From positions 1 to 64,000 of the IMG/VR virus record IMGVR_UViG_3300014205_008670: a stretch of 64,000 bases of DNA; one strand, 5' to 3'. The position numbers were made by a program, and so were the translations under genes. Each line of letters begins with the position of its first letter. Position 1 is the stretch's first letter. Below, in pieces: positions 302 to 52,021 of the stretch. The notes below the pieces were generated by a model that had not been told where the DNA came from, searched no databases, and saw only the letters and a program-made list of their open reading frames with translations. Source of the stretch: a virus. Lineage: Duplodnaviria; Heunggongvirae; Uroviricota; Caudoviricetes.

Positions 302-760
302 ATGCCGAAAATATTAAATGTACCTAAAAGCAAACAAAAATATTCTTGGGATTGTGGTCCACATACATTTATATCTATAATTAAAGCATTAAAAAATACG
401 GTCCCTTCTGAAAACGAAATTATTAAAAATTTAAATGCAGATAAAAAGACTGGAACTGATCCGTTAAATTATATTGAAGCACTAAATAAAGAAAATATAA
501 AAAGTCATTTAATGGAGAACCCAGATATAGAAAAAATAAAGAAAGCAATTATATCAGGAAATCCTGTTGCTTTAATTGTTCAAGCCTATTCTGATTCAAA
601 GGAAGAAGTAATAAATTTAAAATCAGGACATTGGGTTGTATTGGTTGGAAGTGATAAAGATTATTTGTATTTCATAGATCCTTTAAGTAAGAGTGGAATT
701 ACAAAAATAAAAGAAAGTGATTTTCTTTATAGATGGAAAAACATAGTAAAAAAAAATCAA
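302..760 (+). other. C39-like papain-fold cysteine peptidase domain within the giant protein
   Basis: Cys in SWDCGPH (aa 18) and His in SGHWVVLVG (aa 110) at the spacing typical of C39 bacteriocin-processing peptidases. Confidence 0.6.
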
Positions 761-6700: not shown

Positions 6701-9700
6701 ATTAAATCTTTAGGGTCTGTAACAAAAAAAGAATCCGAATTTAGCATCAGTAAATATGACTTTAATATTTATTTAAATGGAGAAAAAAAAGAAGTTTCAA
6801 TTAATAGTGAACATATTTCATCCCCAGATAATTGTTTTAGAAGGGATCGTTCAAATACAAATTTAAGTGGGTTTATATTACAAAGTTTTCCATTATACGA
6901 AGAATTATATATGGATATTTTTAATAAAAAATATAAAAATATTATAGATGAAACTGCTAATGAAAATGATTTTGTTTTACTGAAAACAGATCCATTATTT
7001 TATTTACTAGGAGAATTAGCAGGAAATGAAGCATCATATATTTTCGTTAATAGACATAAAGTTATTGATAGAGAAACATATAATAAAATATCTAATCCAT
7101 TTTCCTATAGTGTTACTACTAATGATTTTCTTGAGTTATATAAAAAAATAATTTCTAAAATTCCACAAAATATTAGGAAGTCTTTTGAAAAGCAAAATAT
7201 TGAACATCTGTTTAATTTTAAAATAAACGATCCATTAAAAAGTAATACTTGGACCTATTTGTGCTCTGGTGTTTTTTCACCTGAATTTATTCAATCTTTA
7301 ATCGAAAAATGGCCAGAAGATGCAAGAAAGGTAAGAAATTTAATTAAGTCTAATTCTAGTGAAGAAGTAAATAATGAACTAAAAGAAAAGATTGATATTT
7401 TTTCAGATAAAAAATTAAAAAATTTAAACAAAGATATTTCAGAATTTTTACTTGGTCAAAATAATTCAAAATTATTCCATGTTTCAGATTTTCCTGAACT
7501 AAAAGAATTTTCTACAGATTTTTTAAACTTTTTTTTAAAAAACAACGATAAAGAAACATACAACTATCAAGAAAGTGTAAATGAAACTAAACTTCAATCA
7601 GCTTTAAAAAACTTGGAAAAAATAGAAATATATATAGTGGATAGCCATAACTTAATAGAACAGTTTGGTGAAGAACAATTGAGAGGCTATAGAATTCATC
7701 CTGAAAATATTTCTGGATTTTATTCTGGTCCATATAATATTTTCCAAAAACCAAATCCTATTATAGTTATTTTTTCTGATAATACAAGTTCTGCTGAGGA
7801 TATATGTGAATCTGTTTCAGAGATATTGGGAATGAGACCTATTGGCTCAACTGGTTTAAATCTAAGAAAAGAACAAACACTATGGCATGAAACAACTCAT
7901 GGTTTAATAGATTTAGCAATTGGAGATATTGAAAAGGAAAGAAATTATTATGAAAACACAACAACATGGCTTTCTGATATTGAAGAAGTTTTAACAATTT
8001 CTTATGGCAATTTAGACTATATAAAAAATAGAGTTTCTGAAATGGTTGAAAGAACATTTCCTAAAGACAAAAAAATGATAGAAGGGTTTATCGAAAATCT
8101 AAAAAAAGATTTAATAAAAGAATTCCCATTGGAATTTTACGGTGTTTATTCAGAAAAAGCAAAAATAGAAATAGACGAATACGTAAAAGAAGAATTACCA
8201 GAAATTCTTTCAAAAGAAAATATGGACTCCTTAAAACAATCAATTGTTTCTATGTTTTCAAAATTCTTTTTATCAAAGATGTTAGTCCAAAAATTTGACT
8301 CTATTAATAGTATAGGTGATGATAGAAATAAACTAAAGTTCCCTTCTGATAAAATAGTTCCAGAAGTAAATGAAGAACCTTATGTGCAAAATAAAAAAGA
8401 TGAATTTATTTTAGAATTAGAAAAAAGAAGCGATTACCAAGACTTTATAAATAAAGTAAAAGAAAGAATAAAAGGCATTACCTTTAGCAAAAACAAAGAT
8501 ACTATGTATGAATATAAATCATATATAAATAATACTAAAAACAATATGAGTCCTATTTTTACTATTTATGATCTGATTAGATTTATATATGATCAAAACT
8601 TTTACAGTTTAAGTGATGTTGATGTAAATAAAATAAATCCATATTTTGAAGATATTATACCAGAATCACTACTTAATGATATAACTGAATATGTAATAAT
8701 AGAAAAAGAAAAACTTAATATACCCTTAAATATTCAGGAACCTGAAATTACATCAGAAGAGGCTGAAGATTTGGGAAATATGATTTATGACACAAGAGAA
8801 AATATTGGAAAAGGATGGGAATGGTTAGCTTTTAATGAAAATAAATTGTATAAAAAAGCTAAAACAAATTGGTATAAAATTTCTCAACATACAAATACAT
8901 TGGTTTGTATAGATATACAAGAAGAATGGAAAGAATATTTTTCAAACATTGATATGTGTGATTTTTTTAAATTTATTAATAGTTATGATAAAACTATTTA
9001 CGTAGTAGATTCTTTGGCTTCAGGAATTGACTTTTATAGCGATTATAAAGCAAAACTTCCAAAAGATTTGGCATTTCAATTCTATAACAATAGCAATGAA
9101 GACAAAAATAATGACGAATTTGATTTTGATAGTTTGTATGAATATGGAGAATGTCCAGTTTCTCCTAAAATAGATTTTCAGATAAAAAACTATGGAGGAA
9201 TACTAAGAGAGGCTATTGATGCTGGCATGGACAATGAAGTAAAGTTTATGCTTAAATCTATTATAAACAAAGATATAAATGAAGAAAAGTTAGATTATAT
9301 AGAAGAAACAATTAAAGAACTTGATAAACATACTGGAATTGATTATTGGGAAAAAGAATTTGACTTTCTAGAAGCAGATCAATTGGCACAAAAAATTTAT
9401 GAAAAATTTTCTTATCATTCCTCAGAACTTATCCAAGGTATTCCTAATGATTTTTGGAAAAGCTTAGGCTCTATAGATATTTGTGGTGGTGGAATTAATG
9501 AATGTTTAGCGGAAGTTACTGCTGCATTAGATATCCTTGATGTTCAATATAATATTATTAATAAATATACTTATGGAAGCAATGAAAAGTTTTATAAAAA
9601 CTCATTGGCCAAAACTTTGACAAACAATGATTTGTCCATTACAGTACCTAATTATAGAAAGGAAAGTAAAATGCTTACTTTTGCTCAAATGGCAGATGGT

Positions 9701-11413
9701 GGTAAGGCGTATAATACAGACCTACAAATAGATCTTCCGCCTACGTTAAACAATATTCTAAATACTTTAAAACAAAACAATTCATACGGATTGCTTGTTG
9801 GTGGTGCTGTCCGAGATAAATTTCTTGGTCTAGAACCAAAAGATTTAGATATAGAAGTTTATGGCATAAGCTATGAACAGCTTTTTAAAATCTTAAGTAA
9901 ATTTGATAGAAAAAATTCTCCAGATGTTGTTGGTAAATCATTTGGGATAATAAAAATAACAGATAACGAAGGTAATGACTATGATTTTTCAATTCCAAGA
10001 AGAGAATCAAAAACAGGAGTTGGACATCAGGGATTTTCTGTAGAGTTTGATCCTAATATTACTCCAAAGGAAGCTGCTGCAAGAAGAGACTTTACTATAA
10101 ACTCTTTGTCGTACGATCCTTTGACACATCAGGTTTTTGATTATTTTGGTGGTGTAGATGATATACAAAATAAAATTCTTAAAGCTACTTCTCCTGCATT
10201 TGCCGAAGATTCACTAAGGGCATTAAGAGGGATGCAGTTTGCCGGAAGATTTGGCTTTTCTTTAGAAGATCAAACAGCAGAAATGATAAGGGGTTTAATA
10301 AGCGATTATCCGTCTCTAGCTAAAGAACGTGTTTCTGGTGAATGGATGAAGTTTTTTACAAAGAGTAATCATCCCGGAAAAGCTTTAGAATTTTTAATTA
10401 AAAGTGGTTGGATAAAATTATATCCAGAAATAAATGCCTTTATTCCAGACAAATATGAAGAACAATTGTTAGAAGAAATAAAGTCAGATAATTATCCGGG
10501 TATTTCTGGACATAAAAGTATAAGGCAAGAGTTTGAATGGCATCCCGAAGGGTCTGTTTTACTTCACACAATTTATGTTTTAGAAGCTTCTGCAAAAATT
10601 GCTGACGAACAAAACATAAAGGGTGAAGACAGGGCTGTTATTTTAATGTCAGCATTATGTCACGATTTAGGTAAAGCTACACATACAAAAATAGAAAATA
10701 AAAAAGGAATACAAAGAGTAACTTCTCCGGGACATGAAGAGGCTAGTGTTCCTTTAGCTAAAACATTTTTAGAAAGTGTTGGAATCAAAAAAAATCTTAT
10801 TGACAGAGTTTTGCCATTAGTAGGAAATCATATGCAGCATATAACATATGATTCAAAATCTAAAAACGGAAATGTCAGACAAATTGCTGAAAGAATTTTT
10901 CCGGCTACAATAAGAGAATTAGAGTTAGTAATAAGATCAGATATGGGAGGAAGACCTCCATTACCCGGTGGGTTACCTCCAGAAGCAGAGCAAATGGTTT
11001 CTGACGCTAGAGAACATGGTGTTTATGAAGGTAAATATCAAAACCTAATTCAAGGAAGAGATTTGATTGAAGAGTTTAATCTTAAGCCCGGAATAATTAT
11101 GGGGGAAACATTAAAATTTGTTAGACAAAAAATGTTAGAGGGTTTGGTTTCCAGTCGTGAAGAAGCACTTATTGTTGCTGATGATTTTTTGAAGAGAAAA
11201 CAAAATTTTATTAACGGTAAAGATGTTTTAGAGGTAATGGAAACAGATAAAGGGGGACCGTTTGTAAAAGAAATATTAGATTTGGCATGGGAACAACAAA
11301 AAAATGGGACACTAAAGACAAGAGAAGAATCAATTAACTGGTTAATTGGATATGTTAAAGGTAATCTAGAAATAAAACCAGAAACAAACAACAACATTAT
11401 TTCAGAGGAATAA
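302..11413 (+). CDS. giant multidomain (polyvalent-type) protein, 3703 aa. N-terminal C39-like cysteine peptidase, internal ParB/Srx-like motif, Cys4 zinc ribbon, C-terminal class II CCA-adding/poly(A) polymerase head + HD phosphohydrolase domain
   Basis: Uninterrupted 11.1-kb ORF. N-terminus has KYSWDCGPHTF with a downstream SGHWVVLVGSDKDYLYFIDP His box, a papain-like C39 pattern. ITGHEGRHRMEALRR resembles the ParB/sulfiredoxin DGHHR box. CPDCG...CKDCG is a zinc ribbon. The C-terminus has LLVGGAVRDKFLGLEPKDLDIE (GGxVRD + DxD), RRDFTINSL (class II motif C), EDSLRALRGMQFAGRFGF (motif D), then HPEG...CHDLGK (HD domain). Confidence 0.85.
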   Translation: MPKILNVPKSKQKYSWDCGPHTFISIIKALKNTVPSENEIIKNLNADKKTGTDPLNYIEALNKENIKSHLMENPDIEKIKKAIISGNPVALIVQAYSDSKEEVINLKSGHWVVLVGSDKDYLYFIDPLSKSGITKIKESDFLYRWKNIVKKNQPEKRTAIVIDYKIDKIIKIKNDIDLMPMSLGTNKMNYWYKKASQEENIIEKLENDDYKSHEELISDLENSVLIWREVRLKNENIVILSTDGKKEYVAIVHDGYNDFDDIFDWFYGISDIDIYNYVDYLEENDFWEGVSEGYFLYHATDCKNIESIKEKGLIVDCKTRAITNRNMPCAVFSHPNDTSLDSYGDCVIGINVGLMKKDGYMPKTMKENGMEEAEVREILAHKLGIEDFDIYDELNKGMSQGLDPETIAFLGNIPPKYLIFPENIKANKSSSIKIATKMTQEDFIKQFNDFQKKINKVFEKYSYINPEYIKEYKEDFFKNLNRFIEHYDYTSLDLDELMKILDDISYAYKNAGWIMDSAFSKKQETKNISNLKDFRSEVYYLVMQFKKGFLENKNPEGRLDVLQEVFDLVDYSLDELSLKYKNYSEIIKKAVSIWSEAKTKIAEQIFQSPNRLFNYVRHFISKIEDLDTETSDIDFNSEINIKEHYYDGICPDCGMEIPENSKVNDSCKDCGHVFNLEYELTEEDLDRLEDSIDKEFREDLYRLGYNSLRKLEKFLNIEKTKEFEHYEGFEDFGNNIFLNNKSWYKLSQNEDHININFDPSGTGSTPNNLNIEYLGFTKYLTPNEFLSNAAPLQEVNEKTIQYFIDKYKNGEPISNPTFYAIYDEDKNVLEITGHEGRHRMEALRRVSPNEKVPVHIFPQGLRARHFVDKNVNEISFVPEKYSEKKYSGKNFIKNSANIGEQIDLFENDVELSPFTLLNGYFKILEEIKPYLDESVFVHFDQTNIDEMVQEEMESQGNDYANNYLENYDDIYGQLIHSLRDQGYFDEKENTYKSLLQEISNKIKVKSMEILSLEPFSKLVIDKINNNDFFLTKILNKEIFDDNENYFKNNEDVDILKNIYLNGDFNSICSQYVDINYLIDNFPSIFDYYSYRGLEKGPGYETLIPILNEYDDSNFSIEEEDLVDLIPYQSKIEWILEEYNDQILESIQEGTYYSLKESYSEMARKLGVGKNEKDLENFTILDLFVNAGINIIEDPENPEGSYSDSFIEELKGGVSYLYEFFKDNKDESVDFSENCLYLLKQMQEVSVSIVISGLNLDYDFYKDNVLSMFKNQLKLTYPGSFELNFAKFIMEMCHEYAEIRDEKKEEKDEILETYHLNISKKDELLSRISITKSEISSLEDLKKTGNISIVDYEKRNSELENKMEKENRRLETLEYDIKKIQEKLQVAQENIPEFLNLRNCNVAKILMNKIAVLLENKDKDSFFPKFCYITNQNVNRNVKKNWIAKNAIPFLETYLNTTPNPNGSIQILYQKMGPLAGTDRETIPQNVAAGKNYVLKWLSSRVFDSGEEIHNCIQPFFDHTIMGQQFLGKFLEDEFLGERNSNTINLVLRARKDLIEKKHLIPGEKNPPSEVLWSPSKKIENYIVPDKKRDILAYHEYSLALLYGGVGTGDTLGMFSVELLKEGYSNKAIEHFLSKINFEKGQNITPYSSNHGNFDFVITSKLDPINVVAGDKTNCCFSIGDAAESSLVDAFTNPDSGFLIVYIAGTKTLVAQSWIRLNYDSEKTPSLYLDNIETVSKYKFSTDLTKCFKLFAEKIKKDRNYKNVYVGKNLSKIIFHSPAIRPNDIPRFPGAKSGIYSDLSTGAWIIANKKTDKNWYKISGVEDFVSGIQNYDINEVIEKYPNESELNEEQKRNIRSISFSTNYGSSKSKTKLFLKYPQYTYYSLYVLEQYFLGYNPEEKEILLIWNKMDKEKDQNIPDSLPAYIYNDIAKNYTNMISTEFATNVFRNKTKYPGALIYACAKKFPDLYKCLNSNNPDTVLDSLLKKIEFPNEKNIEESIEITRNMVRPLNNIDGTVLSEEEYKKEKEIKNQNQKYFIDFFVELNKEEKKLFNILKRDSESNFTSIYSSSSYWNISLDSANLYLLLDKVLDSYKNKNNYIDKDSGFRVYNFTIKEKQLSYISFCGNLISKEILENIIKSLGSVTKKESEFSISKYDFNIYLNGEKKEVSINSEHISSPDNCFRRDRSNTNLSGFILQSFPLYEELYMDIFNKKYKNIIDETANENDFVLLKTDPLFYLLGELAGNEASYIFVNRHKVIDRETYNKISNPFSYSVTTNDFLELYKKIISKIPQNIRKSFEKQNIEHLFNFKINDPLKSNTWTYLCSGVFSPEFIQSLIEKWPEDARKVRNLIKSNSSEEVNNELKEKIDIFSDKKLKNLNKDISEFLLGQNNSKLFHVSDFPELKEFSTDFLNFFLKNNDKETYNYQESVNETKLQSALKNLEKIEIYIVDSHNLIEQFGEEQLRGYRIHPENISGFYSGPYNIFQKPNPIIVIFSDNTSSAEDICESVSEILGMRPIGSTGLNLRKEQTLWHETTHGLIDLAIGDIEKERNYYENTTTWLSDIEEVLTISYGNLDYIKNRVSEMVERTFPKDKKMIEGFIENLKKDLIKEFPLEFYGVYSEKAKIEIDEYVKEELPEILSKENMDSLKQSIVSMFSKFFLSKMLVQKFDSINSIGDDRNKLKFPSDKIVPEVNEEPYVQNKKDEFILELEKRSDYQDFINKVKERIKGITFSKNKDTMYEYKSYINNTKNNMSPIFTIYDLIRFIYDQNFYSLSDVDVNKINPYFEDIIPESLLNDITEYVIIEKEKLNIPLNIQEPEITSEEAEDLGNMIYDTRENIGKGWEWLAFNENKLYKKAKTNWYKISQHTNTLVCIDIQEEWKEYFSNIDMCDFFKFINSYDKTIYVVDSLASGIDFYSDYKAKLPKDLAFQFYNNSNEDKNNDEFDFDSLYEYGECPVSPKIDFQIKNYGGILREAIDAGMDNEVKFMLKSIINKDINEEKLDYIEETIKELDKHTGIDYWEKEFDFLEADQLAQKIYEKFSYHSSELIQGIPNDFWKSLGSIDICGGGINECLAEVTAALDILDVQYNIINKYTYGSNEKFYKNSLAKTLTNNDLSITVPNYRKESKMLTFAQMADGGKAYNTDLQIDLPPTLNNILNTLKQNNSYGLLVGGAVRDKFLGLEPKDLDIEVYGISYEQLFKILSKFDRKNSPDVVGKSFGIIKITDNEGNDYDFSIPRRESKTGVGHQGFSVEFDPNITPKEAAARRDFTINSLSYDPLTHQVFDYFGGVDDIQNKILKATSPAFAEDSLRALRGMQFAGRFGFSLEDQTAEMIRGLISDYPSLAKERVSGEWMKFFTKSNHPGKALEFLIKSGWIKLYPEINAFIPDKYEEQLLEEIKSDNYPGISGHKSIRQEFEWHPEGSVLLHTIYVLEASAKIADEQNIKGEDRAVILMSALCHDLGKATHTKIENKKGIQRVTSPGHEEASVPLAKTFLESVGIKKNLIDRVLPLVGNHMQHITYDSKSKNGNVRQIAERIFPATIRELELVIRSDMGGRPPLPGGLPPEAEQMVSDAREHGVYEGKYQNLIQGRDLIEEFNLKPGIIMGETLKFVRQKMLEGLVSSREEALIVADDFLKRKQNFINGKDVLEVMETDKGGPFVKEILDLAWEQQKNGTLKTREESINWLIGYVKGNLEIKPETNNNIISEE
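2650..2900 (+). other. ParB/Srx-like (ParB N-terminal nuclease-like) motif region within the giant protein
   Basis: LEITGHEGRHRMEALRRV resembles the ParB/sulfiredoxin GxxRxxA / DGHHR box. Weaker than the other domain calls. Confidence 0.4.
9740..10860 (+). other. class II tRNA nucleotidyltransferase (CCA-adding / poly(A) polymerase-like) head-neck plus HD domain, C-terminal part of the giant protein
   Basis: GGAVRD, DLDIE, RRDFTIN and EDxLRxLRxxRF motifs are present in canonical order. The downstream HD domain (H...HD...D) matches bacterial Cca. Confidence 0.8.
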
Positions 11414-15895: not shown

Positions 15896-18508
15896 ATGTC
15901 TCTTAACAAAACAGATAGTGGCGTTTTTTACTTTGGGGTTCTTCCAGAAGAAGAAGTTTTAATTCAAGCTAGTCGTCATCTAGTTGATAACCGTTGTGTT
16001 TTTATGGGGTTAATGTCAGATTGTCACTTAGGGTATTCAACCCCAATAGGTGGAGTAGCTGTTTATAAAGATGTTATTTCTCCATCTGGAGTGGGATTTG
16101 ATATTTCATGTATTGTCGAAGGATCAGAGGTTACTACAGGTTCTGGAGAACTTGTAAGGATTGAGGATATCTCCAAAGAGAATGTGGGACTTACTATGAA
16201 GTTGTCCGGATCTCTTGTTGAAACAAATATTACTGGTGTATCTTGCAAAGAAGTCGAAGAAATATTAGAGATAGAATTAGAAAATGGAGATTTTATAAGA
16301 TTAACAGAAGATCATCTTCTTTTGACGGAATATGATGGCGTGAAATCTTGGCGGGAAGCAAATAGTTTTTCTATGGGAGACAGGATTATGGTCTCTCCTT
16401 ATATTGGTTGTAAAGGGAAATTAACGAAACATCATATTTTCATGAGAATTTTGGGATATTTGATGGGAGATGGACATCTTCCAAGAGATAGCAATAGAAG
16501 CGTTTTTTATTCTTCTATTGATAAAGATGCTGATTCCATTGCAAAAGATATAGAAAAATATTATGAGTATCTTGTTCATCAACAAGATATACAAAAATCT
16601 ATATCTGTAAATCCTAATGACATTCCATCTATAGATACAGTAAATGTTGGAATTTTTCGTAGGGACAAAAAAACTATTACAGGAAAAAACACAAGAGAAA
16701 ATTGTGTTTATTTTTTTTCCAGTTATATTAGGAAAGAATTTGAACTTTACGGGTGTCCTGTTGGTAAAAAAGAGTTTGATATTTCAAGACTACATGAAAT
16801 CTTTTCAAACCTTTCGTTGGTTGATAAGTCCAATTTCATCGGAGGGATTTTGGGCGCTGAAGCGGGATGTCCAAAAATTGGTAAGAATAATGTTTTTAAC
16901 CCTTGGATAAAGATGGGAGGTATAAACGGAAGAGATTTCTTGGAATTTATCTCTTCTCTTCTTGAGGAATTCGATTTCGAATCTCATATTACTCTCTCAA
17001 CTGAAGAAGATGGAGAAAAAAAAGCAACATATGTCCTCCAAATCATTGGAGGGATGGACGAGTTTGAAAGATTTTATAGAACTTTCAAATTTTTTTATTC
17101 TGATTATAAAGAGATAGAAAAGGCAAAAGTTCTTTCTTATATTTGGAGTAAAAAGAAAATAGTTAACAAAAAAATTGCAGCCAGAGAACTGTGTCGCTTT
17201 CTCAGGTCTCAAGGTTGCAAAGTGAATTCTTTGCATAAAGAAGCTTCTAAAATGCTTGGATATGAAGTAAATAAAAGATTTGCTCTAAGGTCCATTTATG
17301 AGGATTGCGGAGATCCAAGAATTAGTGAAGAAAAACCAATTATCAATACAAATGATCAAGGAATTTGGGTCAAGATTGTATCTATTAATAAACTTAAAGA
17401 AAAGACAAAAGTTTACGATATAGGAATTGACCATGTAGGTCATAACTTTATTGCAAATGGAGTAGTTGTGCATAACTGTGGGAATAAAGCTGTAAAGTTA
17501 AACATAAAGGGTGTTACTATAAGAAAAGATATAAAAAAAATAATTGAAGAAATATCGAAAAATATTTCATTTGGAGTAGGTAGATGCAATAACAAAAAAG
17601 TAGATCATGAATTGTTTGATGATCCTACTTGGAATTTAGATTGTATTAAAGAAATATCAAGAGGTGTTAACAAAAAAAATGATTTAAGAGATATGGCAAT
17701 ATCCCAATTGGGCACTATTGGTTCCGGAAATCACTATCTAGACCTGTTTGTAGACGAAAATGATGATGTATGGATTGGAGTTCATTTCGGATCTCGTGGA
17801 CTTGGACATAAAATAGCAACATATTTTCTACATGAAGCTGGTGGAAAAGATGATATTAATGCCTATCCTACATTAATTAGTGTAAATAGCGACTTAGGAC
17901 AAGAGTATATTTCTTGTATGAAGCTGGCTGGTAGATATGCCTATGCCGGAAGAGATTGGGTTTGTAATACTGTTGCAAATATACTTCGTGGTAAAATAAT
18001 AGAAGAAGTACATAACAATCATAATTTTGCATTTGAAGAAACTCATTTTGGAGAAAGTTATTGGGTTATTAGAAAAGGTGCCACGCCTGCTTTTCCGGGT
18101 CAAAAAGGTTTTGTTGGCGGAAGCATGGGAGATAACAGCGTAATTATTGAGGGTGTAGACTCAGAAGAATCAAGACAATCATTTTATTCAACGGTACATG
18201 GCGCTGGTCGTGTTATGGGAAGAATGGAAGCTAAAGGAAAGTTTAAACAAAAAAAAGATTCTTCAGGGAAAAAAACCGGAGAATTTGAATGTGTAAGAGA
18301 ACCTAAAGTAAAAAAAGAAGATATGCTAAAATGGATTAAAGAAAAGGGAGTTGAACTTTATGGTGCAGATGTTGATGAATCTCCATTTGTTTATAAAAGA
18401 TTAAATGAAGTTCTTGGGTTTCATTCAAACACAATAAAAATCCTTCATGACTTACAACCAATTGCAGTAATGATGGCTGGTAACGAAAGAGATCCGTACA
18501 AAGATTGA
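15896..18508 (+). CDS. rtcB: RtcB RNA ligase (3'-phosphate/5'-OH) interrupted by an intein
   Basis: N-extein has SDCHLGYSTPIGGV and SPSGVGFDIS, followed by the C-extein CGNKAV. Extein total is ~414 aa, like E. coli RtcB. The 456-aa insert has LAGLIDADG blocks. Confidence 0.85.
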   Translation: MSLNKTDSGVFYFGVLPEEEVLIQASRHLVDNRCVFMGLMSDCHLGYSTPIGGVAVYKDVISPSGVGFDISCIVEGSEVTTGSGELVRIEDISKENVGLTMKLSGSLVETNITGVSCKEVEEILEIELENGDFIRLTEDHLLLTEYDGVKSWREANSFSMGDRIMVSPYIGCKGKLTKHHIFMRILGYLMGDGHLPRDSNRSVFYSSIDKDADSIAKDIEKYYEYLVHQQDIQKSISVNPNDIPSIDTVNVGIFRRDKKTITGKNTRENCVYFFSSYIRKEFELYGCPVGKKEFDISRLHEIFSNLSLVDKSNFIGGILGAEAGCPKIGKNNVFNPWIKMGGINGRDFLEFISSLLEEFDFESHITLSTEEDGEKKATYVLQIIGGMDEFERFYRTFKFFYSDYKEIEKAKVLSYIWSKKKIVNKKIAARELCRFLRSQGCKVNSLHKEASKMLGYEVNKRFALRSIYEDCGDPRISEEKPIINTNDQGIWVKIVSINKLKEKTKVYDIGIDHVGHNFIANGVVVHNCGNKAVKLNIKGVTIRKDIKKIIEEISKNISFGVGRCNNKKVDHELFDDPTWNLDCIKEISRGVNKKNDLRDMAISQLGTIGSGNHYLDLFVDENDDVWIGVHFGSRGLGHKIATYFLHEAGGKDDINAYPTLISVNSDLGQEYISCMKLAGRYAYAGRDWVCNTVANILRGKIIEEVHNNHNFAFEETHFGESYWVIRKGATPAFPGQKGFVGGSMGDNSVIIEGVDSEESRQSFYSTVHGAGRVMGRMEAKGKFKQKKDSSGKKTGEFECVREPKVKKEDMLKWIKEKGVELYGADVDESPFVYKRLNEVLGFHSNTIKILHDLQPIAVMMAGNERDPYKD
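16109..17476 (+). mobile_element. intein with LAGLIDADG homing-endonuclease domain inserted at the RtcB catalytic Cys
   Basis: Starts at Cys (CIVEGSEV), ends ...NGVVVHN with +1 Cys. DOD motifs ILGYLMGDGHL and IGGILGAEAG. The flanking exteins rejoin to the RtcB DISCG active-site motif. Confidence 0.75.
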
Positions 18509-18513
18509 AAAGT

Positions 18514-18555
18514 GGCCAAAATAGTATTGCGGTTCAAAATGGTTTGTCGTACATA
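18514..18555 (+). promoter_or_regulatory. candidate promoter (GGCCA element, -35 TTGCGG, 17 nt, -10 TACATA) driving the Y-RNA region
   Basis: GTGGCCAAAATAGTATTGCGG-17nt-TACATAT. The -10-like TCGTACAT is shared with the 49810 promoter. Confidence 0.3.
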
Positions 18556-18609
18556 TATACCATAGTTGTTGAGCAAGAAAGTCTGTTCTTTGAAATTGTA
18601 GTAAGATTT

Positions 18610-18748
18610 TTACATTAGGTCGGACTGAGTTGATTATCCGCTCAGAGGTCCAAACGCAGGTTCGAATCCTGCCCAACTAGTAGTACTGGTTGGTCGTCTA
18701 GCGGTTCAGGACGGGAAAAAACTCAACTCTAATTTTTATCTAATGTAA
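18610..18748 (+). ncRNA. YrlA-like Y RNA with a circularly permuted tRNA-like module (T-arm, acceptor stem, D-arm) closed by a long-range helix
   Basis: T-arm GCAGG-TTCGAAT-CCTGC (18656-72). Acceptor 3' strand CCAACTA (18673-79), 5-nt loop, acceptor 5' strand CTGGTTGG. D-arm GTCT-AGCGGTTCA-GGAC (18696-712). Flanking strands TTACATTAG...GAGTTGA (18610-33) and TCAACTC...CTAATGTAA (18723-48) are complementary. GGTCGGA resembles the conserved Ro-binding GGUCCGA. Confidence 0.5.
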
Positions 18749-18749
18749 T

Positions 18750-19000
18750 TTAAAAATTAATGGGTCGAATGAAAACGATTATCAAATGCCTATTCGTTCT
18801 CAACTTTTTTATCCATTATTAAATTTCAACAATCTTGCAGGGCTTCGTTCCTGTTAGGTTGTTGAGACCCTGGTCAAAGGAAGGCAATCCCGAAGATTGC
18901 CTTCCCTAAAAATCTTCTGGGTCGTAGTAATTGATTATCCCTTCGATAGAGAACCGAGGAATCTTCCTCGTTACTTTCAATTACAGTTTTATCCAGAATT
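18750..19000 (+). ncRNA. possible additional Y-RNA-like modules or structured RNA
   Basis: Two more copies of the GGTCG-N-GATTATC motif (18762-90, 18919-41). Perfect 11-bp hairpin GGAAGGCAATC-ccgaag-GATTGCCTTCC at 18878-906. CGAGGA-atct-TCCTCG hairpin. No credible ORF. Confidence 0.25.
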
Positions 19001-19324
19001 TTTTATACGGTCTTACTATAGCTTTAGTTTAAATAACTTAAAACGTCAAGACATCTTTATTAACCATTCAATACAGCGACAGATTGTAGAATTAAAAATT
19101 CTATTTGTATTGAAATTAACTTATCAGAATTTAAAATAAAAATTCAGGTCGTATTTTGTAGATTACCCTTCCAATCAGAAAGAACAAATGATGTCTTGTT
19201 CGTAAATCTGTCAAAAACAAAACAAATTAATCCATGAGATTTATTTGTTTTTCTACAAAAAACTTTTATCTGGTTTTATTTTAAATTCTGAACACTTTAT
19301 TCCTACTATATAAGGAGTCGAATT

Positions 19325-21010
19325 ATGAGTGTTAAGGCTTATAAAAATATTGGAAAAAGAAATGCTGAAAAAAAGGCAACTCAAGGAACAAAGCTTGAGG
19401 GTCAAGTAAAAAATCATGATGGAGCATATGTATATAAGGTAGATGATTGGAATAAACTTGATCGTTTCCTTTTTCTTGGTACAGAAAATGGAAGTTACTA
19501 TGCTTCAGAAAAAAAACTTACCAAAGAAAGTGTAAAGAATATTTTGAAGCTTTTGGAGCTAGATGGGAAGAAGGTTGTTGATCGTGTTGTTGAAATTTCT
19601 CTTCTTGGATCAGCCCCAAAGAATGATCAGGCTTTATTTGTTCTTGCTTTAGCCTCTGCTGATAAAAATGTAGAAACTCGTAGAGCCGCATTTAATGCTC
19701 TTTCAAAAGTTGCTAGAATTGGTACTCATCTTTTCCATTTCGTAGAATTTCGTGAACAATTTGCTGGTTGGGGAAAAGGAATGAGAAAGGCTATTTCTAG
19801 TTGGTATGGAGATAAAGACCTTAAGGACCTTTCATTTCAGCTTGGAAAATATCAATCTCGTGATGGTTGGTCAAATAGAGACTTACTAAGACTTTCTCAT
19901 GCAAATCCTAAAGAGGATGAAAATAGATCTACTATTTATAAGTGGGTAGTTAGCCCAAAAGAAGTTAATGGAGATTACCTCAAGGTGGCTTCTCCTATTC
20001 TTAGTGCTTTTGATGAAATTAAATCTACTGATGATGAAAAAAGAATTTTAGAGCTTGTTACTGAGTTTAAACTTCCTCTAGAAATGATTCCTACCGATAA
20101 ACGTAGCCGTAAGGTTTATGAAGTAATGTTGAATAATTTTGGCATTACTGCACTTATTAGAAATCTAGGAAAACTTAGTGAATGTGGAATTCTTGATTCA
20201 GGTAACTTTTCTGAAGTGAATAAGGTTGTTAATAGACTAACAAACGTTGATGAAATTAAAAAAGGTCGTGTTCATCCTATTTCTACCCTAATGGCATTGC
20301 TTGTATATAAGAATGGTAAAGGGGTTAAAGGTGATTTGACTTGGAAACCAAATCCAAAAATCATTGACGCACTTAATGAGGCTTTTTATCTTGGATTTGA
20401 CTCAATTGAATCAACTGGAAAAAACATAATGCTTGCATTGGATGTTTCTGGTTCTATGAATAGCCCTATTGGTGGAACATTTCTTACTTGTCGAGAGGCG
20501 AGTGCAGCAATGGCAATGGCTGTTGCAAAAACAGAAAAGAACTACTTGATAACAAGTTTTAGTTCTAAGGGAAATGGATATTTATCTGGCGGACATAGAT
20601 TCTATGACAAATCTATCAGCAATGATTTCTTTAACGTGTCTGGATTAACTGAATTAAATATTACAAATAAAACAAAACTACCTGAAGTAATGGATAGTGT
20701 TAATAATCTTGATTTTACTGCCACAGATTGTTCTCTTCCAATGAGATGGGCTTTAAAAAACAAAATTAAATTTGATGCCTTTGTTGTTTATACAGACAAT
20801 GAAACTAACTGTTACAACCAAATCCAACCATCAGCGGCATTAAAGAGATATCGTGAAGAAATGGGAATAGATGCAAAGTTAATTGTAAATGCAATGACAG
20901 TTACTGATTTTACAATTGCAGATCCAAATGACAAAGGAATGCTTGATTGTATCGGATTTTCAAGTGATACCCCTCAAGTTATATCTCGCTTTATTAAAAA
21001 CGAATTCTAA
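19325..21010 (+). CDS. rsr: Ro60/Rsr ortholog (TROVE domain + vWA domain with MIDAS)
   Basis: N-terminal TROVE-like region. C-terminal vWA with MLALDVSGSM (DxSGS MIDAS). RBS AAGGAG. Confidence 0.8.
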   Translation: MSVKAYKNIGKRNAEKKATQGTKLEGQVKNHDGAYVYKVDDWNKLDRFLFLGTENGSYYASEKKLTKESVKNILKLLELDGKKVVDRVVEISLLGSAPKNDQALFVLALASADKNVETRRAAFNALSKVARIGTHLFHFVEFREQFAGWGKGMRKAISSWYGDKDLKDLSFQLGKYQSRDGWSNRDLLRLSHANPKEDENRSTIYKWVVSPKEVNGDYLKVASPILSAFDEIKSTDDEKRILELVTEFKLPLEMIPTDKRSRKVYEVMLNNFGITALIRNLGKLSECGILDSGNFSEVNKVVNRLTNVDEIKKGRVHPISTLMALLVYKNGKGVKGDLTWKPNPKIIDALNEAFYLGFDSIESTGKNIMLALDVSGSMNSPIGGTFLTCREASAAMAMAVAKTEKNYLITSFSSKGNGYLSGGHRFYDKSISNDFFNVSGLTELNITNKTKLPEVMDSVNNLDFTATDCSLPMRWALKNKIKFDAFVVYTDNETNCYNQIQPSAALKRYREEMGIDAKLIVNAMTVTDFTIADPNDKGMLDCIGFSSDTPQVISRFIKNEF

Positions 21011-21184: not shown

Positions 21185-21685
21185 ATGACAACAGAGTACG
21201 TTGCTAATGATGAGATTAGTTTTCAGGAAGTTACAGTAATCAATACAAATGGAGAAAATTTAGGGATTAAAAGGTTAGAGGAAGCACTAGAAATTGCTTC
21301 AAATGAAGACTTAGATCTTGTTGTTGTAAATCCAGATCCAGAGAATCCGGTTTGTAAAATCATAGACCTTTCAAAGTTTAGATATGAAAAGCGTCAAAAA
21401 GATAAGAAAAATCCAAAAAGACATAAAACAAAAGAAATTAGAATTTCTGTAAACATAGAAGAACATGATCTTAATATTAAAACTAAAAATATTGATAGAT
21501 TTTTGTCTCAAGGTTCAAATGTTCTTGTTAATATTAAATTTCCTACCCGCCAAAGAGATACAATTTCACTAACTATTAGCGAAATATTAAATAAAATTCA
21601 AACCCTTTTAAACACAAAACACCAAATTGAACTTGGTTCTTATGGTAGTTCTAATTATTCTACGGAGATTATTCCAATTAAATGA
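21185..21685 (+). CDS. infC: translation initiation factor IF-3 homolog
   Basis: ISFQEVTVINTNGENLGIKRLEEALEIASNEDLDLVVVNPDPENPVCKIIDLSKFRYEK aligns nearly residue for residue with the E. coli IF3 N-domain/linker (...[27 protein letters not shown]). The C-domain is also alignable. Confidence 0.85.
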   Translation: MTTEYVANDEISFQEVTVINTNGENLGIKRLEEALEIASNEDLDLVVVNPDPENPVCKIIDLSKFRYEKRQKDKKNPKRHKTKEIRISVNIEEHDLNIKTKNIDRFLSQGSNVLVNIKFPTRQRDTISLTISEILNKIQTLLNTKHQIELGSYGSSNYSTEIIPIK

Positions 21686-22377
21686 TTAATGTTCAAGAGC
21701 CTCCTAGGGTCTTGAATGAATATCAACGTGATGATAAAATATTAAAAAACCTTTACTTAGTAAACATTGTTGCAAAAGAGTATCGTTTTTTAGAAAACTC
21801 AAAATATGAGGATCTTATTCAAGAAGGACGAATCGGACTCATTAAAGCAGTAGATAAATTCGATCCAATCATAGGAACCAATTTTAAAACATATGCATTA
21901 TATCACATAAAATATAACATTCAAGATTTTCTTAGAAAAGAGTCATCTTTAGTATATATTCCTTATAATCGTCTTTGCAAGGCTTTTCGTCTACAAAGAT
22001 TTATACATTCTTTTATTCAAAATAAAAATGGAACCCCTCCTTCTGAAAAAGAAATGAGGGGTTTTCTTCATTGTAACTCAACATATCTAACAGATATACT
22101 GTTGATTGTGTTGATCTTAAATAATAAAATCAACAATATTGAAGAAAAATATTCGTATAGTAGTAATATGCATGTCAATATATTTAATTTAAATATTACT
22201 TCTATGATGAAAAGTCTTTACTATGAGGAAGAGTTGGTTTTAAAAGAAAAATATTTTGAAAACAAATCATTTAGAGAAATAGGTAGTATTTTAAATTTTT
22301 CACATGAAAAAATTAGAAAAATTCACAATAATGGTCTTTTGAGACTTAAATCTCTTTTGAAAGATTTAGAGGAATAA
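21682..22377 (+). CDS. sigma-70 family RNA polymerase sigma factor (regions 2 and 4)
   Basis: Region 2 RIGLIKAVDKFDPIIGTNFKTYALYHIKYNIQDFL. C-terminal HTH FREIGSILNFSHEKIRKIHNNGLLRLK (region 4). ATGA overlap with IF3. Confidence 0.7.
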   Translation: MINVQEPPRVLNEYQRDDKILKNLYLVNIVAKEYRFLENSKYEDLIQEGRIGLIKAVDKFDPIIGTNFKTYALYHIKYNIQDFLRKESSLVYIPYNRLCKAFRLQRFIHSFIQNKNGTPPSEKEMRGFLHCNSTYLTDILLIVLILNNKINNIEEKYSYSSNMHVNIFNLNITSMMKSLYYEEELVLKEKYFENKSFREIGSILNFSHEKIRKIHNNGLLRLKSLLKDLEE

Positions 22378-49809: not shown

Positions 49810-49850
49810 GGCCAACTTAAGTTGAACACTAGCCATAGTTCGTCGTACAT
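49810..49850 (+). promoter_or_regulatory. candidate promoter (TTTTGGCCA element, palindrome CAACTTAAGTTG, -35 TTGAAC, -10 TACAT)
   Basis: TTTTTGGCCAACTTAAGTTGAAC-17nt-GTACATTAT. Shares CCATAGTT and CGTCGTACAT strings with the 18514 promoter region. Confidence 0.3.
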
Positions 49851-49899
49851 TATTATTAGTTTTGTTTTACGGACATCATGTAGTTTAAAGGATTCAAAA

Positions 49900-52020: not shown

Positions 52021-52021
52021 A

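What the first reader, a model, noticed from the sequence alone, without database searches (positions are those of the whole stretch)
18509..19324. Y RNA (YrlA-like) with a circularly permuted tRNA-like module between rtcB and rsr
The 815-nt gap has no credible ORF. It contains a perfect T-arm (GCAGG-TTCGAAT-CCTGC), immediately followed by an acceptor-stem 3' strand (CCAACTA), a 5-nt loop, the complementary acceptor 5' strand (CTGGTTGG), then a D-arm (GTCT-AGCGGTTCA-GGAC). This is the T-arm/acceptor/D-arm order of bacterial YrlA Y RNAs rather than of a tRNA. The flanking strands TTACATTAG..GAGTTGA and TCAACTC..CTAATGTAA form the long-range helix that would be the Ro60-binding stem. The 5' strand has GGTCGGA, like the conserved GGUCCGA. 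Two further GGTCG..GATTATC copies follow, so there may be several modules. The rsr-Y RNA-rtcB arrangement matches the Salmonella rsr-yrlBA-rtcBA locus, here carried on a phage.
Basis: partly seen in the sequence, partly recalled or inferred. Interest (0 to 1): 0.75.

Follow-up and report, generated by a model that had tools for sequence, protein, structure and literature searches.

The report
Four phage Y RNAs beside Ro60
The gene-free stretch between a phage's RNA ligase gene (rtcB) and its Ro60 gene carries four small structured RNAs of the Y RNA type, the first with a rearranged tRNA-like body; this kind of RNA is already known from bacteria and phages, so this is a well-supported new example, not a new kind of thing.

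Summary

The gap 18509-19324 lies between an intein-containing RtcB gene and a Ro60 (TROVE+vWA) gene on a phage contig. It holds four Y-RNA-like modules on the + strand:
- M1, 18610-18748, with the tRNA-like order T-arm, acceptor hairpin, D-arm
- M2, 18758-18818
- M3, 18915-18998
- M4, 19114-19301

Covariance models built only from modules in other viral contigs find M1 (75 bits, E=6e-17), M2 (45 bits, E=5e-9) and M3 (35 bits, E=1.5e-6). They find nothing else in the 64 kb on either strand. M4 is conserved, with compensatory changes, just upstream of Ro60 in two related phages.

Across 25 foreign modules the two core helices are 92% paired, and 12 of 16 pairs show double changes. The tRNA-like model also hits the region upstream of the Ro-like gene of a mycobacteriophage, where Rfam YrlA scores 37 bits (E=4e-5).

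Rfam's curated YrlA threshold is not met for M1 (18 bits against 69). There is no expression or binding evidence.

Verdict: a new, divergent member of the known bacterial/phage Y RNA (YrlA-like) kind, arranged as a four-module array. Relatives carry arrays of up to ten modules.

The parts
15896..18508 (+). RtcB RNA ligase gene interrupted by an intein with a LAGLIDADG homing-endonuclease domain; upstream neighbour of the RNA array
   Evidence: Pfam RtcB 2.4e-60, Intein_splicing 2.6e-18, LAGLIDADG_3 2.9e-06
18512..18608 (+). Conserved non-coding leader (TGGCCAA..TTGC..TTGTCGTACAT..CTG.TCTTTGAAATT..TAAGA) just before module 1. It may be a promoter or a processing element; its function is not established.
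   Evidence: Conserved in the same position in L001 and L004 although the upstream genes differ (alignment A4). The motif TTGTCGTACATA is not repeated elsewhere in the window beyond chance.
18610..18748 (+). Module M1: YrlA-like Y RNA. P1 is 18610-18620/18738-18748; GGUCGGA 18618-18624; P2 18627-18633/18723-18729; UUAUC 18634-18638; T-arm 18656-18672; acceptor-like hairpin 18673-18693; D-arm 18696-18712.
   Evidence: R2 (no window sequences) gives 75.2 bits, E=6e-17, full length. Rfam YrlA gives 18.1 bits, E=0.82. MFE -44.6 kcal/mol, z=-3.6. Constrained cloverleaf-like fold -42.9 against MFE -43.9 kcal/mol. GC 0.44 against 0.305 for the window.
18758..18818 (+). Module M2: minimal hairpin-type Y RNA. 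It has P1, GGUCGAAUG (an exact match to GNCGAAN0-1G), P2, UUAUC and a short loop.
   Evidence: R1 gives 44.9 bits, E=5e-9 over the whole window. The sequence-only model R3 gives only 24.4 bits. R2 gives 30.3 bits. Fold z=-2.3.
18822..18914 (+). Spacer with two strong hairpins (about 18824-18867 and 18879-18905). It is not a Y module and its role is unknown (processing site or a separate small RNA?).
   Evidence: MFE -40.2 kcal/mol, z=-6.5, 0 of 200 shuffles fold as well. Inverted repeats I4 and I14.
18915..18998 (+). Module M3: Y RNA with the same P1 / GGUCG / P2 / UUAUC core and a small branched central domain. Its P1 is followed by UUUUUUAU.
   Evidence: R1 gives 35.0 bits, E=1.5e-6. The sequence-only model does not find it. 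Fold z=-3.2.
19114..19301 (+). Module M4: long Y-like RNA. Extended basal arms 19114-19141/19274-19301; core 19144-19273 (P1 UCAGGU/AUCUGG, GGUCGUA, P2 UUUUGUAGA/UCUACAAAA, UUACC). The central domain is not tRNA-like and carries the conserved motifs GAUGUCUUG and UCUGUCAAAA. It ends 24 nt before the rsr start codon.
   Evidence: Inverted repeat I1, 28 nt, 86% complementary. Fold z=-2.6. Orthologues directly upstream of Ro60 in L001 and L004: 52 consensus pairs, 21 with changes on both sides. Too long for model R1 to reach.
19325..21010 (+). Ro60/Rsr orthologue (TROVE + vWA), the presumed protein partner of the four RNAs
   Evidence: Pfam vWA_Ro60 1.1e-57, TROVE 3.7e-36. Xenopus Ro60 1yvp E=1e-117; D. 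radiodurans Rsr 2nvo E=6e-105.

Best explanation
The 816-nt gap is a co-directional array of four phage-encoded Y RNAs that serve the Ro60 protein encoded immediately downstream.

Each module has the same core:
- a basal helix P1 that ends in GG(G)U on the 5' side and AUC(C/U) on the 3' side;
- an internal loop carrying GUCG(G/A/U)A on the 5' strand, opposite a U-rich 3' strand;
- a second helix P2 that ends exactly at a UUAYC motif.

This core is the inferred Ro60-binding module. The variable domain above P2 is the inferred effector end.
- In M1 it is a tRNA body without an anticodon arm (variable region, T-arm, closed acceptor stem, D-arm). It has the canonical U8, A14, G15:C48, G18G19 and UUCGAAU T-loop, which is the YrlA design.
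- M2 is a bare hairpin.
- M3 is a small branched hairpin.
- M4 is a longer non-tRNA domain that is conserved next to rsr in related phages.

The likely course of events, all inferred:
1. The array is transcribed with or just ahead of rsr and cut into individual RNAs.
2. Each RNA binds Ro60 through its core.
3. Through its variable end, each RNA tethers or gates Ro60 towards different partners. The M1 tRNA-like end would engage tRNA-recognising proteins: PNPase-type partners as in the known Ro60-Y RNA-PNPase complexes, tRNA-modifying or processing enzymes, or host tRNA-targeting nucleases as a decoy. This would act alongside the adjacent RtcB ligase during infection.

Shown here: the sequence and structure features, covariation, homology to modules next to other phage Ro60 genes, and specificity within the window.
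Inferred: expression, processing, Ro60 binding and biological role.
For: - Motif specificity: four matches, all on the + strand inside the gap, none elsewhere in 64 kb.
- Flanking RtcB and Ro60 genes. The Ro60 is strongly similar to solved Ro60/Rsr structures.
- All four modules fold to the same core, with z-scores from -2.3 to -3.6.
- Held-out models: R2 finds M1 at 75.2 bits, E=6e-17. R1 finds M2 at 44.9 bits and M3 at 35.0 bits, with no other hit in the window.
- Base pairing adds about 20 bits for M2 and is required to detect M3, compared with a sequence-only model from the same alignment.
- Covariation in 25 foreign cores: 91.8% of cells paired against 36-48% when the partners are slid; 12 of 16 pairs have double changes; 115 compensatory cells; 0 of 500 shuffles reach this.
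- The M4 orthologues keep 52 pairs, 21 with double changes.
- Modules of the related phage L001 match Rfam YrlA at E=2e-8, 6e-8 and 9.5e-6.
- R2 also hits the region upstream of the Ro-like gene of a Bixzunavirus mycobacteriophage, where Rfam YrlA scores 37 bits.
- Seven viral loci fetched by the RNA motif alone, and carrying modules, turned out to have a Ro60 gene next to the modules.
- Published features of YrlA RNAs match: the GNCGAAN0-1G motif, YUAY, the T/AS/D arms, location within 4 kb of Ro60 on the same strand, at least two Y RNAs per species, and processing from one precursor in M. smegmatis (PMC4201824). Thermus phage phiLo has two Y-like RNAs upstream of its Ro60 that bind it (PMC12135203).
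Against: - Rfam's curated YrlA model gives M1 only 18.1 bits (gathering score 69; E=0.82 in a 1-kb search). No Rfam family reaches its threshold anywhere in the window.
- M1, M3 and M4 deviate from the published GNCGAA motif (GUCGGA, GUCGUA, GUCGUA).
- The D-arm of M1 is not in the unconstrained MFE structure.
- No convincing promoter or terminator was found: the counts are at chance level, and the one sigma-70-like site overlaps M4's conserved basal helix.
- There is no RNA-seq, no Ro60-binding evidence and no information on the host.
- The foreign loci used for the models were found with a motif derived from this same family, so the models test membership of this family, not function.
Confidence: 0.85

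Rival explanations
1. The modules act mainly in cis, as a structured 5' leader of the rsr mRNA. Ro60 would bind its own leader, above all M4, which ends 24 nt before the start codon, and so autoregulate translation or stability. On this view they are not free-standing trans-acting Y RNAs.
For: - M4 sits directly upstream of the rsr RBS in the window, L001 and L004.
- No terminator-like site lies between M4 and rsr.
- The rsr RBS region AAGGAGUCGAA resembles the Y motif GGGUCGAA (repeat D5) and is conserved as AAGGAGTCGGA in L001 and L004.
Against: - In M. smegmatis, Y RNAs upstream of rsr are processed from a single precursor into stable RNAs (PMC4201824), so a leader position does not exclude a trans role.
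- Modules of the same family occur away from any Ro60 start: among tRNA genes in L076 and about 4 kb downstream of Ro60 in L007.
- M1's complete tRNA-like body is not needed for a cis operator.
Confidence: 0.07
2. M1 is a decayed, dimeric or circularly permuted tRNA gene (or a tRNA-derived integration-site remnant) with no link to Ro60. The other GGTCG..TTATC repeats would be unrelated phage repeat elements.
For: - The T-arm, acceptor and D-arm are tRNA-like, and Rfam tRNA matches the T-arm (15.3 bits).
- A related module (L001_7) shares 26 identical bases with E. coli tRNA-Glu.
- Dimeric tRNAs are a known false-positive source for YrlA searches (PMC4201824).
Against: - ARAGORN finds no tRNA in the window.
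- There is no anticodon arm. The tRNA-like part is enclosed by P2/P1, which covary across 25 modules.
- The same enclosing core is shared by the modules without a tRNA-like domain.
- Modules co-occur with Ro60 genes in independently fetched loci.
- The gap between the acceptor strands is only 3-7 nt, so this is not two adjacent tRNAs.
Confidence: 0.03
3. Chance: AT-rich intergenic sequence that happens to contain tRNA-like hairpins and short repeats.
For: - Rfam YrlA E=0.82 for M1.
- Short two-copy repeats and many weak inverted repeats are expected in 30% GC DNA.
Against: - Held-out model E-values of 6e-17, 5e-9 and 1.5e-6 over 128 kb searched.
- Zero motif matches outside the gap.
- Conservation of the architecture in relatives with 65-69% identical Ro60, although the DNA is hardly alignable.
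Confidence: 0.01

Closest known systems
YrlA-type bacterial/phage Y RNAs (Salmonella YrlA, M. smegmatis YrlA, mycobacteriophage ET08; Chen et al. 2014, PMC4201824; Rfam RF02553)
   Same: - Encoded within 4 kb of Ro60 on the same strand.
- Closing stem with a GNCGAA-like 5' motif, and a YUAY motif (here UUAU) at the start of the variable region.
- tRNA-like domain in the order T-arm, closed acceptor stem, D-arm, with no anticodon arm.
- Canonical T-loop and D-loop residues and a G15:C48 pair.
- The window-free model R2 hits both M1 and a Bixzunavirus mycobacteriophage, upstream of its Ro-like gene, where Rfam YrlA also matches.
   Different: - M1 scores only 18 bits on RF02553.
- Its motif is GUCGGA, not GNCGAA.
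- Both strands of the basal helix are conserved (GGGU…AUCC), whereas the paper says only the 5' strand is recognisable in the Salmonella and M. smegmatis RNAs.
- It is part of a four-module array.
Hairpin-type second Y RNAs (Salmonella/M. smegmatis YrlB, D. radiodurans Yrn2)
   Same: M2 and M3 are short hairpin Y RNAs that accompany a tRNA-like Y RNA at the same locus. [quoted passage not shown]
   Different: Here there are three partners without a tRNA-like domain. They share a strict core with M1, and M4 has a long, conserved central domain of unknown partner. No sequence similarity to YrlB or Yrn2 was tested.
Thermus phage phiLo Ro60 with Yrl1/Yrl2 (PMC12135203)
   Same: Phage-encoded Ro60 with Y-like RNAs directly upstream. 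The RNAs have a stem / internal bulge with a CGAA-type motif / stem architecture. In that system Ro60 binding and ternary complexes with host PNPase were shown.
   Different: phiLo has two RNAs and no tRNA-like domain is reported. The window has four, one of them tRNA-like, plus an adjacent RtcB. Nothing biochemical is known for the window.
Salmonella rsr-yrlBA-rtcBA RNA repair operon (PMC7790460)
   Same: Ro60, Y RNAs and RtcB are encoded side by side.
   Different: The order here is rtcB, Y RNAs, rsr. No RtcA or RtcR was seen among the neighbouring genes checked. The RtcB carries an intein. RtcB is absent next to Ro60 in every related locus examined, so the linkage is not conserved in this phage lineage.
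Metazoan Y RNAs (Rfam RF00019)
   Same: Ro60-binding closing helix with GGUC(C)GA on the 5' strand. From memory only, human Y RNAs also have GUUAUC shortly after the upper-stem 5' strand, as these modules do. This is a lead, not a test.
   Different: No RF00019 match up to E=10 in the gap or E=1 in L001. There is no bulged C, and the loop domains differ.

Membership tests
Rfam RF02553 (YrlA) | Covariance-model score at or above the curated gathering score (69 bits) | tested here: not met
   M1 at 18626-18733 scores 18.1 bits, E=0.82, with a full-length model alignment. There is no hit at gathering threshold in the whole window. Related modules in L001 reach 46, 44 and 37 bits, also below 69.
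YrlA RNAs as defined by Chen et al. 2014 | Encoded within 4 kb of the Ro60 orthologue and on the same strand | tested here: met
   M1-M4 lie 24-715 nt upstream of rsr (19325) on the + strand.
YrlA RNAs as defined by Chen et al. 2014 | GNCGAAN0-1G motif near the 5' end | tested here: inconclusive
   M2 matches exactly (GUCGAAUG). M1 has GUCGGA, and M3 and M4 have GUCGUA: one mismatch each. GUCGGA is the majority form in 25 related modules.
YrlA RNAs as defined by Chen et al. 2014 | Conserved T and D stem-loops with an acceptor-like stem-loop between them, and YUAY at the start of the variable region | tested here: met
   M1 has T-arm 18656-18672, acceptor-like hairpin 18673-18693, D-arm 18696-18712 and UUAU at 18634-18637. 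The R2 alignment covers all of these. The constrained fold is within 1 kcal/mol of the MFE. M2-M4 lack the tRNA-like domain.
YrlA RNAs as defined by Chen et al. 2014 | tRNA tertiary-interaction nucleotides, including a 15:48 Levitt pair | tested here: met
   By inspection of M1: U8 (18694), A14, G15, G18G19 in AGCGGUUCA, C48 (18655), T-loop UUCGAAU, G53:C61.
Y RNA (functional definition) | Bound by Ro60/Rsr in vivo or in vitro | not testable with these tools
   Only co-location with Ro60 here, and in 7 motif-fetched module-bearing viral loci.
Y RNA (functional definition) | Expressed as a discrete small RNA | not testable with these tools
   No transcript data. The promoter and terminator scans were uninformative.
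Phage Y-like module family defined here (models R1, R2) | Significant match to covariance models built without the window's sequences | tested here: met
   M1 75.2 bits, E=6e-17. M2 44.9 bits, E=5e-9, and M3 35.0 bits, E=1.5e-6. M4 could not be reached by R1 because of its insert length; it is supported by orthologue covariation instead.
tRNA (RF00005 / ARAGORN) | Complete cloverleaf with an anticodon arm in the normal order | tested here: not met
   ARAGORN finds 0 genes. RF00005 matches only the T-arm: 15.3 bits, model positions 43-63.
Metazoan Y RNA (RF00019) | Match to the Rfam model | tested here: not met
   Not among the matches up to E=10 in 18400-19400.

The most novel reading that the evidence does not exclude
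The array is a phage-carried set of Ro60 adaptors that has diversified by module duplication and by capture of tRNA bodies. In relatives it grows to about ten modules. Several of these are circular permutations of particular tRNAs; one carries 26 bases identical to tRNA-Glu.

If so, each tRNA-like Y RNA could act as an anticodon-less decoy or sensor for host enzymes that target a specific tRNA, for example anticodon nucleases used in anti-phage defence. It would work with RtcB repair and Ro60-guided decay to protect translation during infection.

In addition, the two-stranded GGGUCGGA…AUCC core, with GGUUAUC after P2, would be the ancestral Ro60-binding helix shared with animal Y RNAs.
Probability: 0.15. 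Interest if true: 0.75.

Novelty: new member of a known kind. Interest (0 to 1): 0.5.

Why it matters
What bacterial and phage Y RNAs do, and why they copy tRNA, is still unsettled. This locus adds a clean, divergent example in an uncultivated large phage, with one tRNA-like and three other Y modules wedged between an RNA ligase gene and Ro60.

It also led to a wider pattern. Tandem arrays of 3-10 such modules sit next to Ro60 genes in many viral contigs and are not picked up at Rfam's curated thresholds. That gives a sequence and structure definition (P1 / GGGUCGGA / P2 / UUAYC … AUCC) for finding more of them. It also provides natural variation, in the form of different tRNA-like bodies on the same Ro60-binding core, for testing what the tRNA mimicry is for.

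Tried and rejected
- Rfam at gathering thresholds found nothing in the window. ARAGORN found nothing.
- blastn of the gap against 50,697 phage records: no match.
- A protein-pattern scan of viral contigs with the Ro60: no confirmed relative. Relatives were reached through the protein database instead.
- A look-up of the window's own contig through its Ro60 protein: not on record.
- Model R1 with filters off could not span M1 or M4, whose inserts are about 78 nt. It returned only fragments, so M1 was tested with R2 and M4 through its orthologues.
- The sigma-70 promoter and terminator scans were at chance level. The one 10/12 promoter-like site (19110-19137) overlaps M4's conserved basal helix, so I do not rely on it.
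- The conserved leader motif TTGTCGTACATA is not a repeated promoter motif in the window: 7 matches with up to 2 mismatches, against 4.3 expected.
- The small ORFs in the gap have no Pfam match.
- MAFFT with RNAalifold on full tRNA-like modules recovered P1, the T-arm and the D-arm, but not P2 or the acceptor stem, because of length variation. The P2 pairs were therefore given by hand for R2.
- Considered and rejected: dimeric or permuted functional tRNA, an att site, and chance (see rival explanations).
Full report
**1. What is there**

The gap 18509-19324 lies between two + strand genes. Upstream is an 870-aa RtcB RNA ligase interrupted by an intein with a LAGLIDADG domain (15896-18508). Downstream is a 561-aa Ro60 orthologue with TROVE and vWA_Ro60 domains (19325-21010). 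Ro60 is followed by IF3 and a sigma-70-family gene.

The window is phage DNA. It has a portal protein, a virion structural protein and homing endonucleases by PHROGs, and all large ORFs are on one strand. The Ro60 is strongly similar to solved Ro60 structures (Xenopus 1yvp E=1e-117; D. radiodurans Rsr 2nvo E=6e-105).

The ORFs inside the gap (80, 74 and 54 aa) have no Pfam match.

**2. The observation**

- T-arm 18656-18672 (GCAGG-TTCGAAT-CCTGC)
- acceptor-like hairpin 18673-18693
- D-arm 18696-18712 (GTCT-AGCGGTTCA-GGAC)
- outer helices 18610-18620/18738-18748 and 18627-18633/18723-18729
- GGTCGGA at 18618-18624

There is a fourth at 19147.

The pattern GGTC[GA]-N7-18-[GAT][GAT]TTAYC occurs four times in the gap, all on the + strand. 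It occurs nowhere else in the 64 kb on either strand.

**3. Four modules with one core**

Each copy folds on its own into the same design (z-scores -3.6, -2.3, -3.2, -2.6):
- a basal helix P1 whose last pairs are GGU with AUC;
- an internal loop with GUCG(G/A/U)A on the 5' strand opposite a U-rich 3' strand;
- a second helix P2 whose 5' strand ends exactly at UUAYC.

The modules are M1 18610-18748, M2 18758-18818, M3 18915-18998 and M4 core 19144-19273. M4 has a further 28-nt pair of basal arms at 19114-19141/19274-19301 (I1).

Only M1 has a tRNA-like central domain. With P1, P2, T-arm, acceptor hairpin and D-arm enforced, M1 folds at -42.9 kcal/mol, against an MFE of -43.9. By inspection it has U8, A14, G15, G18G19, C48, a UUCGAAU T-loop and G53:C61. 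M1 is 44% GC in a 30.5% GC window.

**4. Known libraries**

- Rfam finds nothing at gathering thresholds.
- ARAGORN finds no tRNA.
- In E-value mode, Rfam YrlA aligns full length to 18626-18733 but scores only 18.1 bits (gathering score 69; E=0.82). The tRNA model sees only the T-arm.

By Rfam's own criterion, M1 is therefore not a member of RF02553.

**5. Relatives**

The gap has no DNA match among 50,697 phage records. By protein, 355 phage records encode a Ro60, all under 60% identical to this one. Most are actinophages; the best match is a 469-kb Sinorhizobium phage at 42%.

The metagenomic protein search gave closer relatives at 69%, 65% and 53% identity. Their contigs (L001/L002 and L004, on contigs of up to 349 kb for the first) share the synteny Ro60, IF3, sigma factor, and then a large protein of about 1,360-1,410 aa, which is 1,371 aa in the window. 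In the relatives a CTP_transf_like gene sits between Ro60 and IF3. They have 2.2-2.95 kb without called genes upstream of Ro60.

Those stretches hold 10 (L001) and 7 (L004) copies of the same 5' motif. They carry the same P1/P2 logic, and several have T-arm/acceptor/D-arm bodies. Three L001 modules match Rfam YrlA at E=2e-8, 6e-8 and 9.5e-6.

A DNA-pattern scan of viral contigs (GGGTCGGA-N5-13-GGTTATC) brought in unrelated contigs with further arrays:
- L011: six modules directly upstream of a Ro60 ORF, in GC-rich DNA, with ACACAUCC replacing UUUUAUCC on the 3' side
- L036: six modules
- L063: six modules
- L046: five modules
- L034 and L113: four modules each
- L074: three or four modules
- L076: modules interspersed with tRNA genes

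A tblastn with the window's Ro60 then showed a Ro60 gene next to the modules in seven of these loci: L011, L033, L034, L046, L054, L058 and L063. These loci had been fetched by the RNA motif alone. None of the fetched loci has an RtcB next to Ro60.

**6. Covariation**

I cut the variable centre out of 25 non-window modules and aligned the cores (A1). For the 16 pairs of P1 and P2:
- 91.8% of cells are standard pairs, against 36-48% when the 3' partners are slid by 1-3 columns;
- 12 pairs have changes on both sides;
- there are 115 compensatory cells;
- no shuffle out of 500 reaches the observed values.

One caveat applies. The 3' strand of P2 was chosen as the best complement within the last 24 nt before AUC, which favours pairing. 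An earlier self versus non-self comparison used the same selection (within a 32-nt tail) on both sets, and it also separates them. P2 is fully paired in 55% of modules with their own partner, against 7.6% with another module's partner. P1 has at least 5 of 6 pairs in 65% against 12%.

**7. Held-out tests on the window**

- Model R1 (core; 25 foreign sequences) was searched over the whole window on both strands. It returns only M2 (44.9 bits, E=5e-9) and M3 (35.0 bits, E=1.5e-6).
- A sequence-only model from the same alignment gives M2 24.4 bits and misses M3. Base pairing in the window's own, different helices therefore carries much of the signal.
- R1 cannot span the roughly 78-nt inserts of M1 and M4.
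- Model R2 was built from seven foreign tRNA-like modules, with P1, P2, T-arm and D-arm pairs. It returns M1 full length at 75.2 bits, E=6e-17, then M2 at 30.3 bits, and nothing else.
- R2 also hits the 485-nt gap upstream of the Ro-like gene of Mycobacterium phage BackyardAgain (Bixzunavirus) at 67 bits. Rfam YrlA matches there at 37 bits. YrlA-like RNAs have been described in mycobacteriophages, for example ET08.

E-values from these shortened calibrations are rough, but the margins are large.

**8. M4**

M4 is the module nearest rsr in the window, L001 and L004. An RNAalifold consensus of the three keeps the extended basal helix, P1 and P2. It has 52 pairs, 21 of them with changes on both sides. 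The DNA is otherwise barely alignable between the phages. The central domain shares the motifs GAUGUCUUG and UCUGUCAAAA and is not tRNA-like.

**9. Comparison with what is known**

Chen et al. 2014 (PMC4201824) described YrlA RNAs in 254 bacteria and 22 phages with these features:
- within 4 kb of Ro60 and on the same strand;
- a GNCGAAN0-1G motif;
- YUAY at the start of the variable region;
- T and D arms separated by an acceptor-like stem-loop;
- tRNA tertiary nucleotides;
- at least two Y RNAs in each species characterised, one tRNA-like and one a long hairpin;
- in M. smegmatis, both processed from one precursor upstream of rsr.

Other relevant reports:
- Thermus phage phiLo has two Y-like RNAs upstream of its Ro60. 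They bind the Ro60 and form complexes with host PNPase (PMC12135203).
- A Listeria phage has three abundant RNAs upstream of an Rsr-like gene (PMC12282133).
- A jumbo-phage survey notes TROVE proteins with a tRNA-like partner as RNA-repair gear (PMC7824862).
- Hughes et al. 2020 suggested that the YrlA tRNA-like domain might competitively inhibit an anticodon nuclease (PMC7790460).

The window fits this picture in almost every respect. The differences are:
- divergence beyond Rfam's threshold;
- GUCGGA or GUCGUA instead of GNCGAA in three of the four modules;
- a conserved 3' strand (AUCC) of the basal helix;
- four modules;
- the gene order rtcB, Y RNAs, rsr, with an intein-bearing RtcB and no RtcA or RtcR among the neighbours checked.

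I found no paper describing tandem arrays of more than a few Y modules in phages. The library is incomplete, so this is not proof of absence.

**10. Mechanism**

Shown: four structured modules with a covarying common core. One has a complete anticodon-less tRNA body. They are specific to this gap, homologous to modules beside other phage Ro60 genes, and linked to the published YrlA class.

Inferred: the array is transcribed in the rtcB/rsr direction. Transcription may start from the conserved leader at 18512-18608, which is conserved in L001 and L004 although the upstream genes differ. The RNAs are then processed, bind Ro60 through the core, and direct or gate Ro60 through their variable ends. 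M1 would engage tRNA-recognising proteins.

Whether the purpose is Ro60/PNPase-type decay of structured RNA, cooperation with RtcB repair, or decoying host tRNA nucleases cannot be decided here.

**11. Verdict**

The locus is a new, divergent member of a known kind: the phage/bacterial YrlA-type Y RNA with companion Y RNAs. The wider pattern of multi-module arrays in viral contigs is the more interesting lead.

Noticed in passing
L001 2047-5001; L004 2764-5001 (also L011 7163-7876 minus strand, L036 138-832, L063 4888-6439, L046 707-2037): Relatives and unrelated viral contigs carry tandem arrays of 5-10 Y-like modules upstream of Ro60, many more than the two to four Y RNAs reported per organism. 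In L001 a normal-order tRNA (4107-4186, Rfam tRNA 50 bits; ARAGORN calls a 4-base anticodon) sits inside the array.
   Followed up: partly
L001 4193-4342 (module 7): Its tRNA-like body reads as a circular permutation of tRNA-Glu. The first 26 bases of the queried segment are identical to E. coli tRNA-Glu genes. The window's M1 shares the same D-arm type (UCGUCUAG.GG..AGGAC).
   Followed up: partly
window 15896-18508: The RtcB gene is split by an intein with a LAGLIDADG homing endonuclease. Two more homing-endonuclease-like ORFs lie at 49822-52020 and 51986-53716.
   Followed up: no
window 18822-18914: Between M2 and M3, two very stable hairpins (-40.2 kcal/mol, z=-6.5) lack the Y core and have no recognisable counterpart in L001 or L004.
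   Followed up: partly
window 19047-19055 with 19190-19198; L001 4679 with 4830; L004 4677 with 4858: A segment about 140-180 nt upstream of M4's loop motif (CAAGACAUC) is complementary to the conserved loop motif GAUGUCUUG inside M4. The complementarity is kept in all three phages, with one A-U to G-C double change in L001 (I17, 81). This may be a long-range or alternative pairing.
   Followed up: partly
window 19311-19323; L001 about 4988-5000; L004 about 4988-5001: The rsr ribosome-binding region AAGGAGUCG(A/G)A resembles the Y-RNA motif GGGUCG(A/G)A and is conserved in the three phages (D5). It may be a Ro60 autoregulatory site or simply a coincidence of a conserved RBS.
   Followed up: no
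L001 2131-2157 with 4441-4466; L004 about 2868-2895 with 4405-4432: A roughly 26-nt inverted repeat (CTCTTTGAAATTACGATAAGACCTTAA / TTAAGGTCTTATCGTAATTTCAAAGA) brackets modules 1-8 of the relatives' arrays, like the processing stems of rRNA operons. The window keeps the 5' copy in its leader but has only a weak distal complement (18584-18598 with 19172-19186, 80%; I7).
   Followed up: partly
L001 2300-2760 and 2890-3480; L004 3060-3160 and 3420-3960: Long conserved non-coding blocks between Y modules have no Rfam match at threshold. The only weak hit is RAGATH-33 at 25.7 bits, E=0.021. They may be other structured RNAs.
   Followed up: no
window 21185-22377 and 302-11413: The phage encodes its own IF3 and a sigma-70-family factor directly downstream of Ro60; IF3 and the sigma factor also follow Ro60 in L001 and L004. 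It also has very large ORFs, up to 3703 aa.
   Followed up: no
window 18610-18620/18738-18748 and L001 3852-3867/4003-4020: M1's basal helix sequence resembles that of L001 module 5, while its D-arm and its GUUGAUUAUC resemble L001 module 7. This suggests modules are mosaics formed by recombination within arrays. L004 module 5 likewise has the 3' part of L001 module 7 joined to a different 5' part, with a weakened P1.
   Followed up: no
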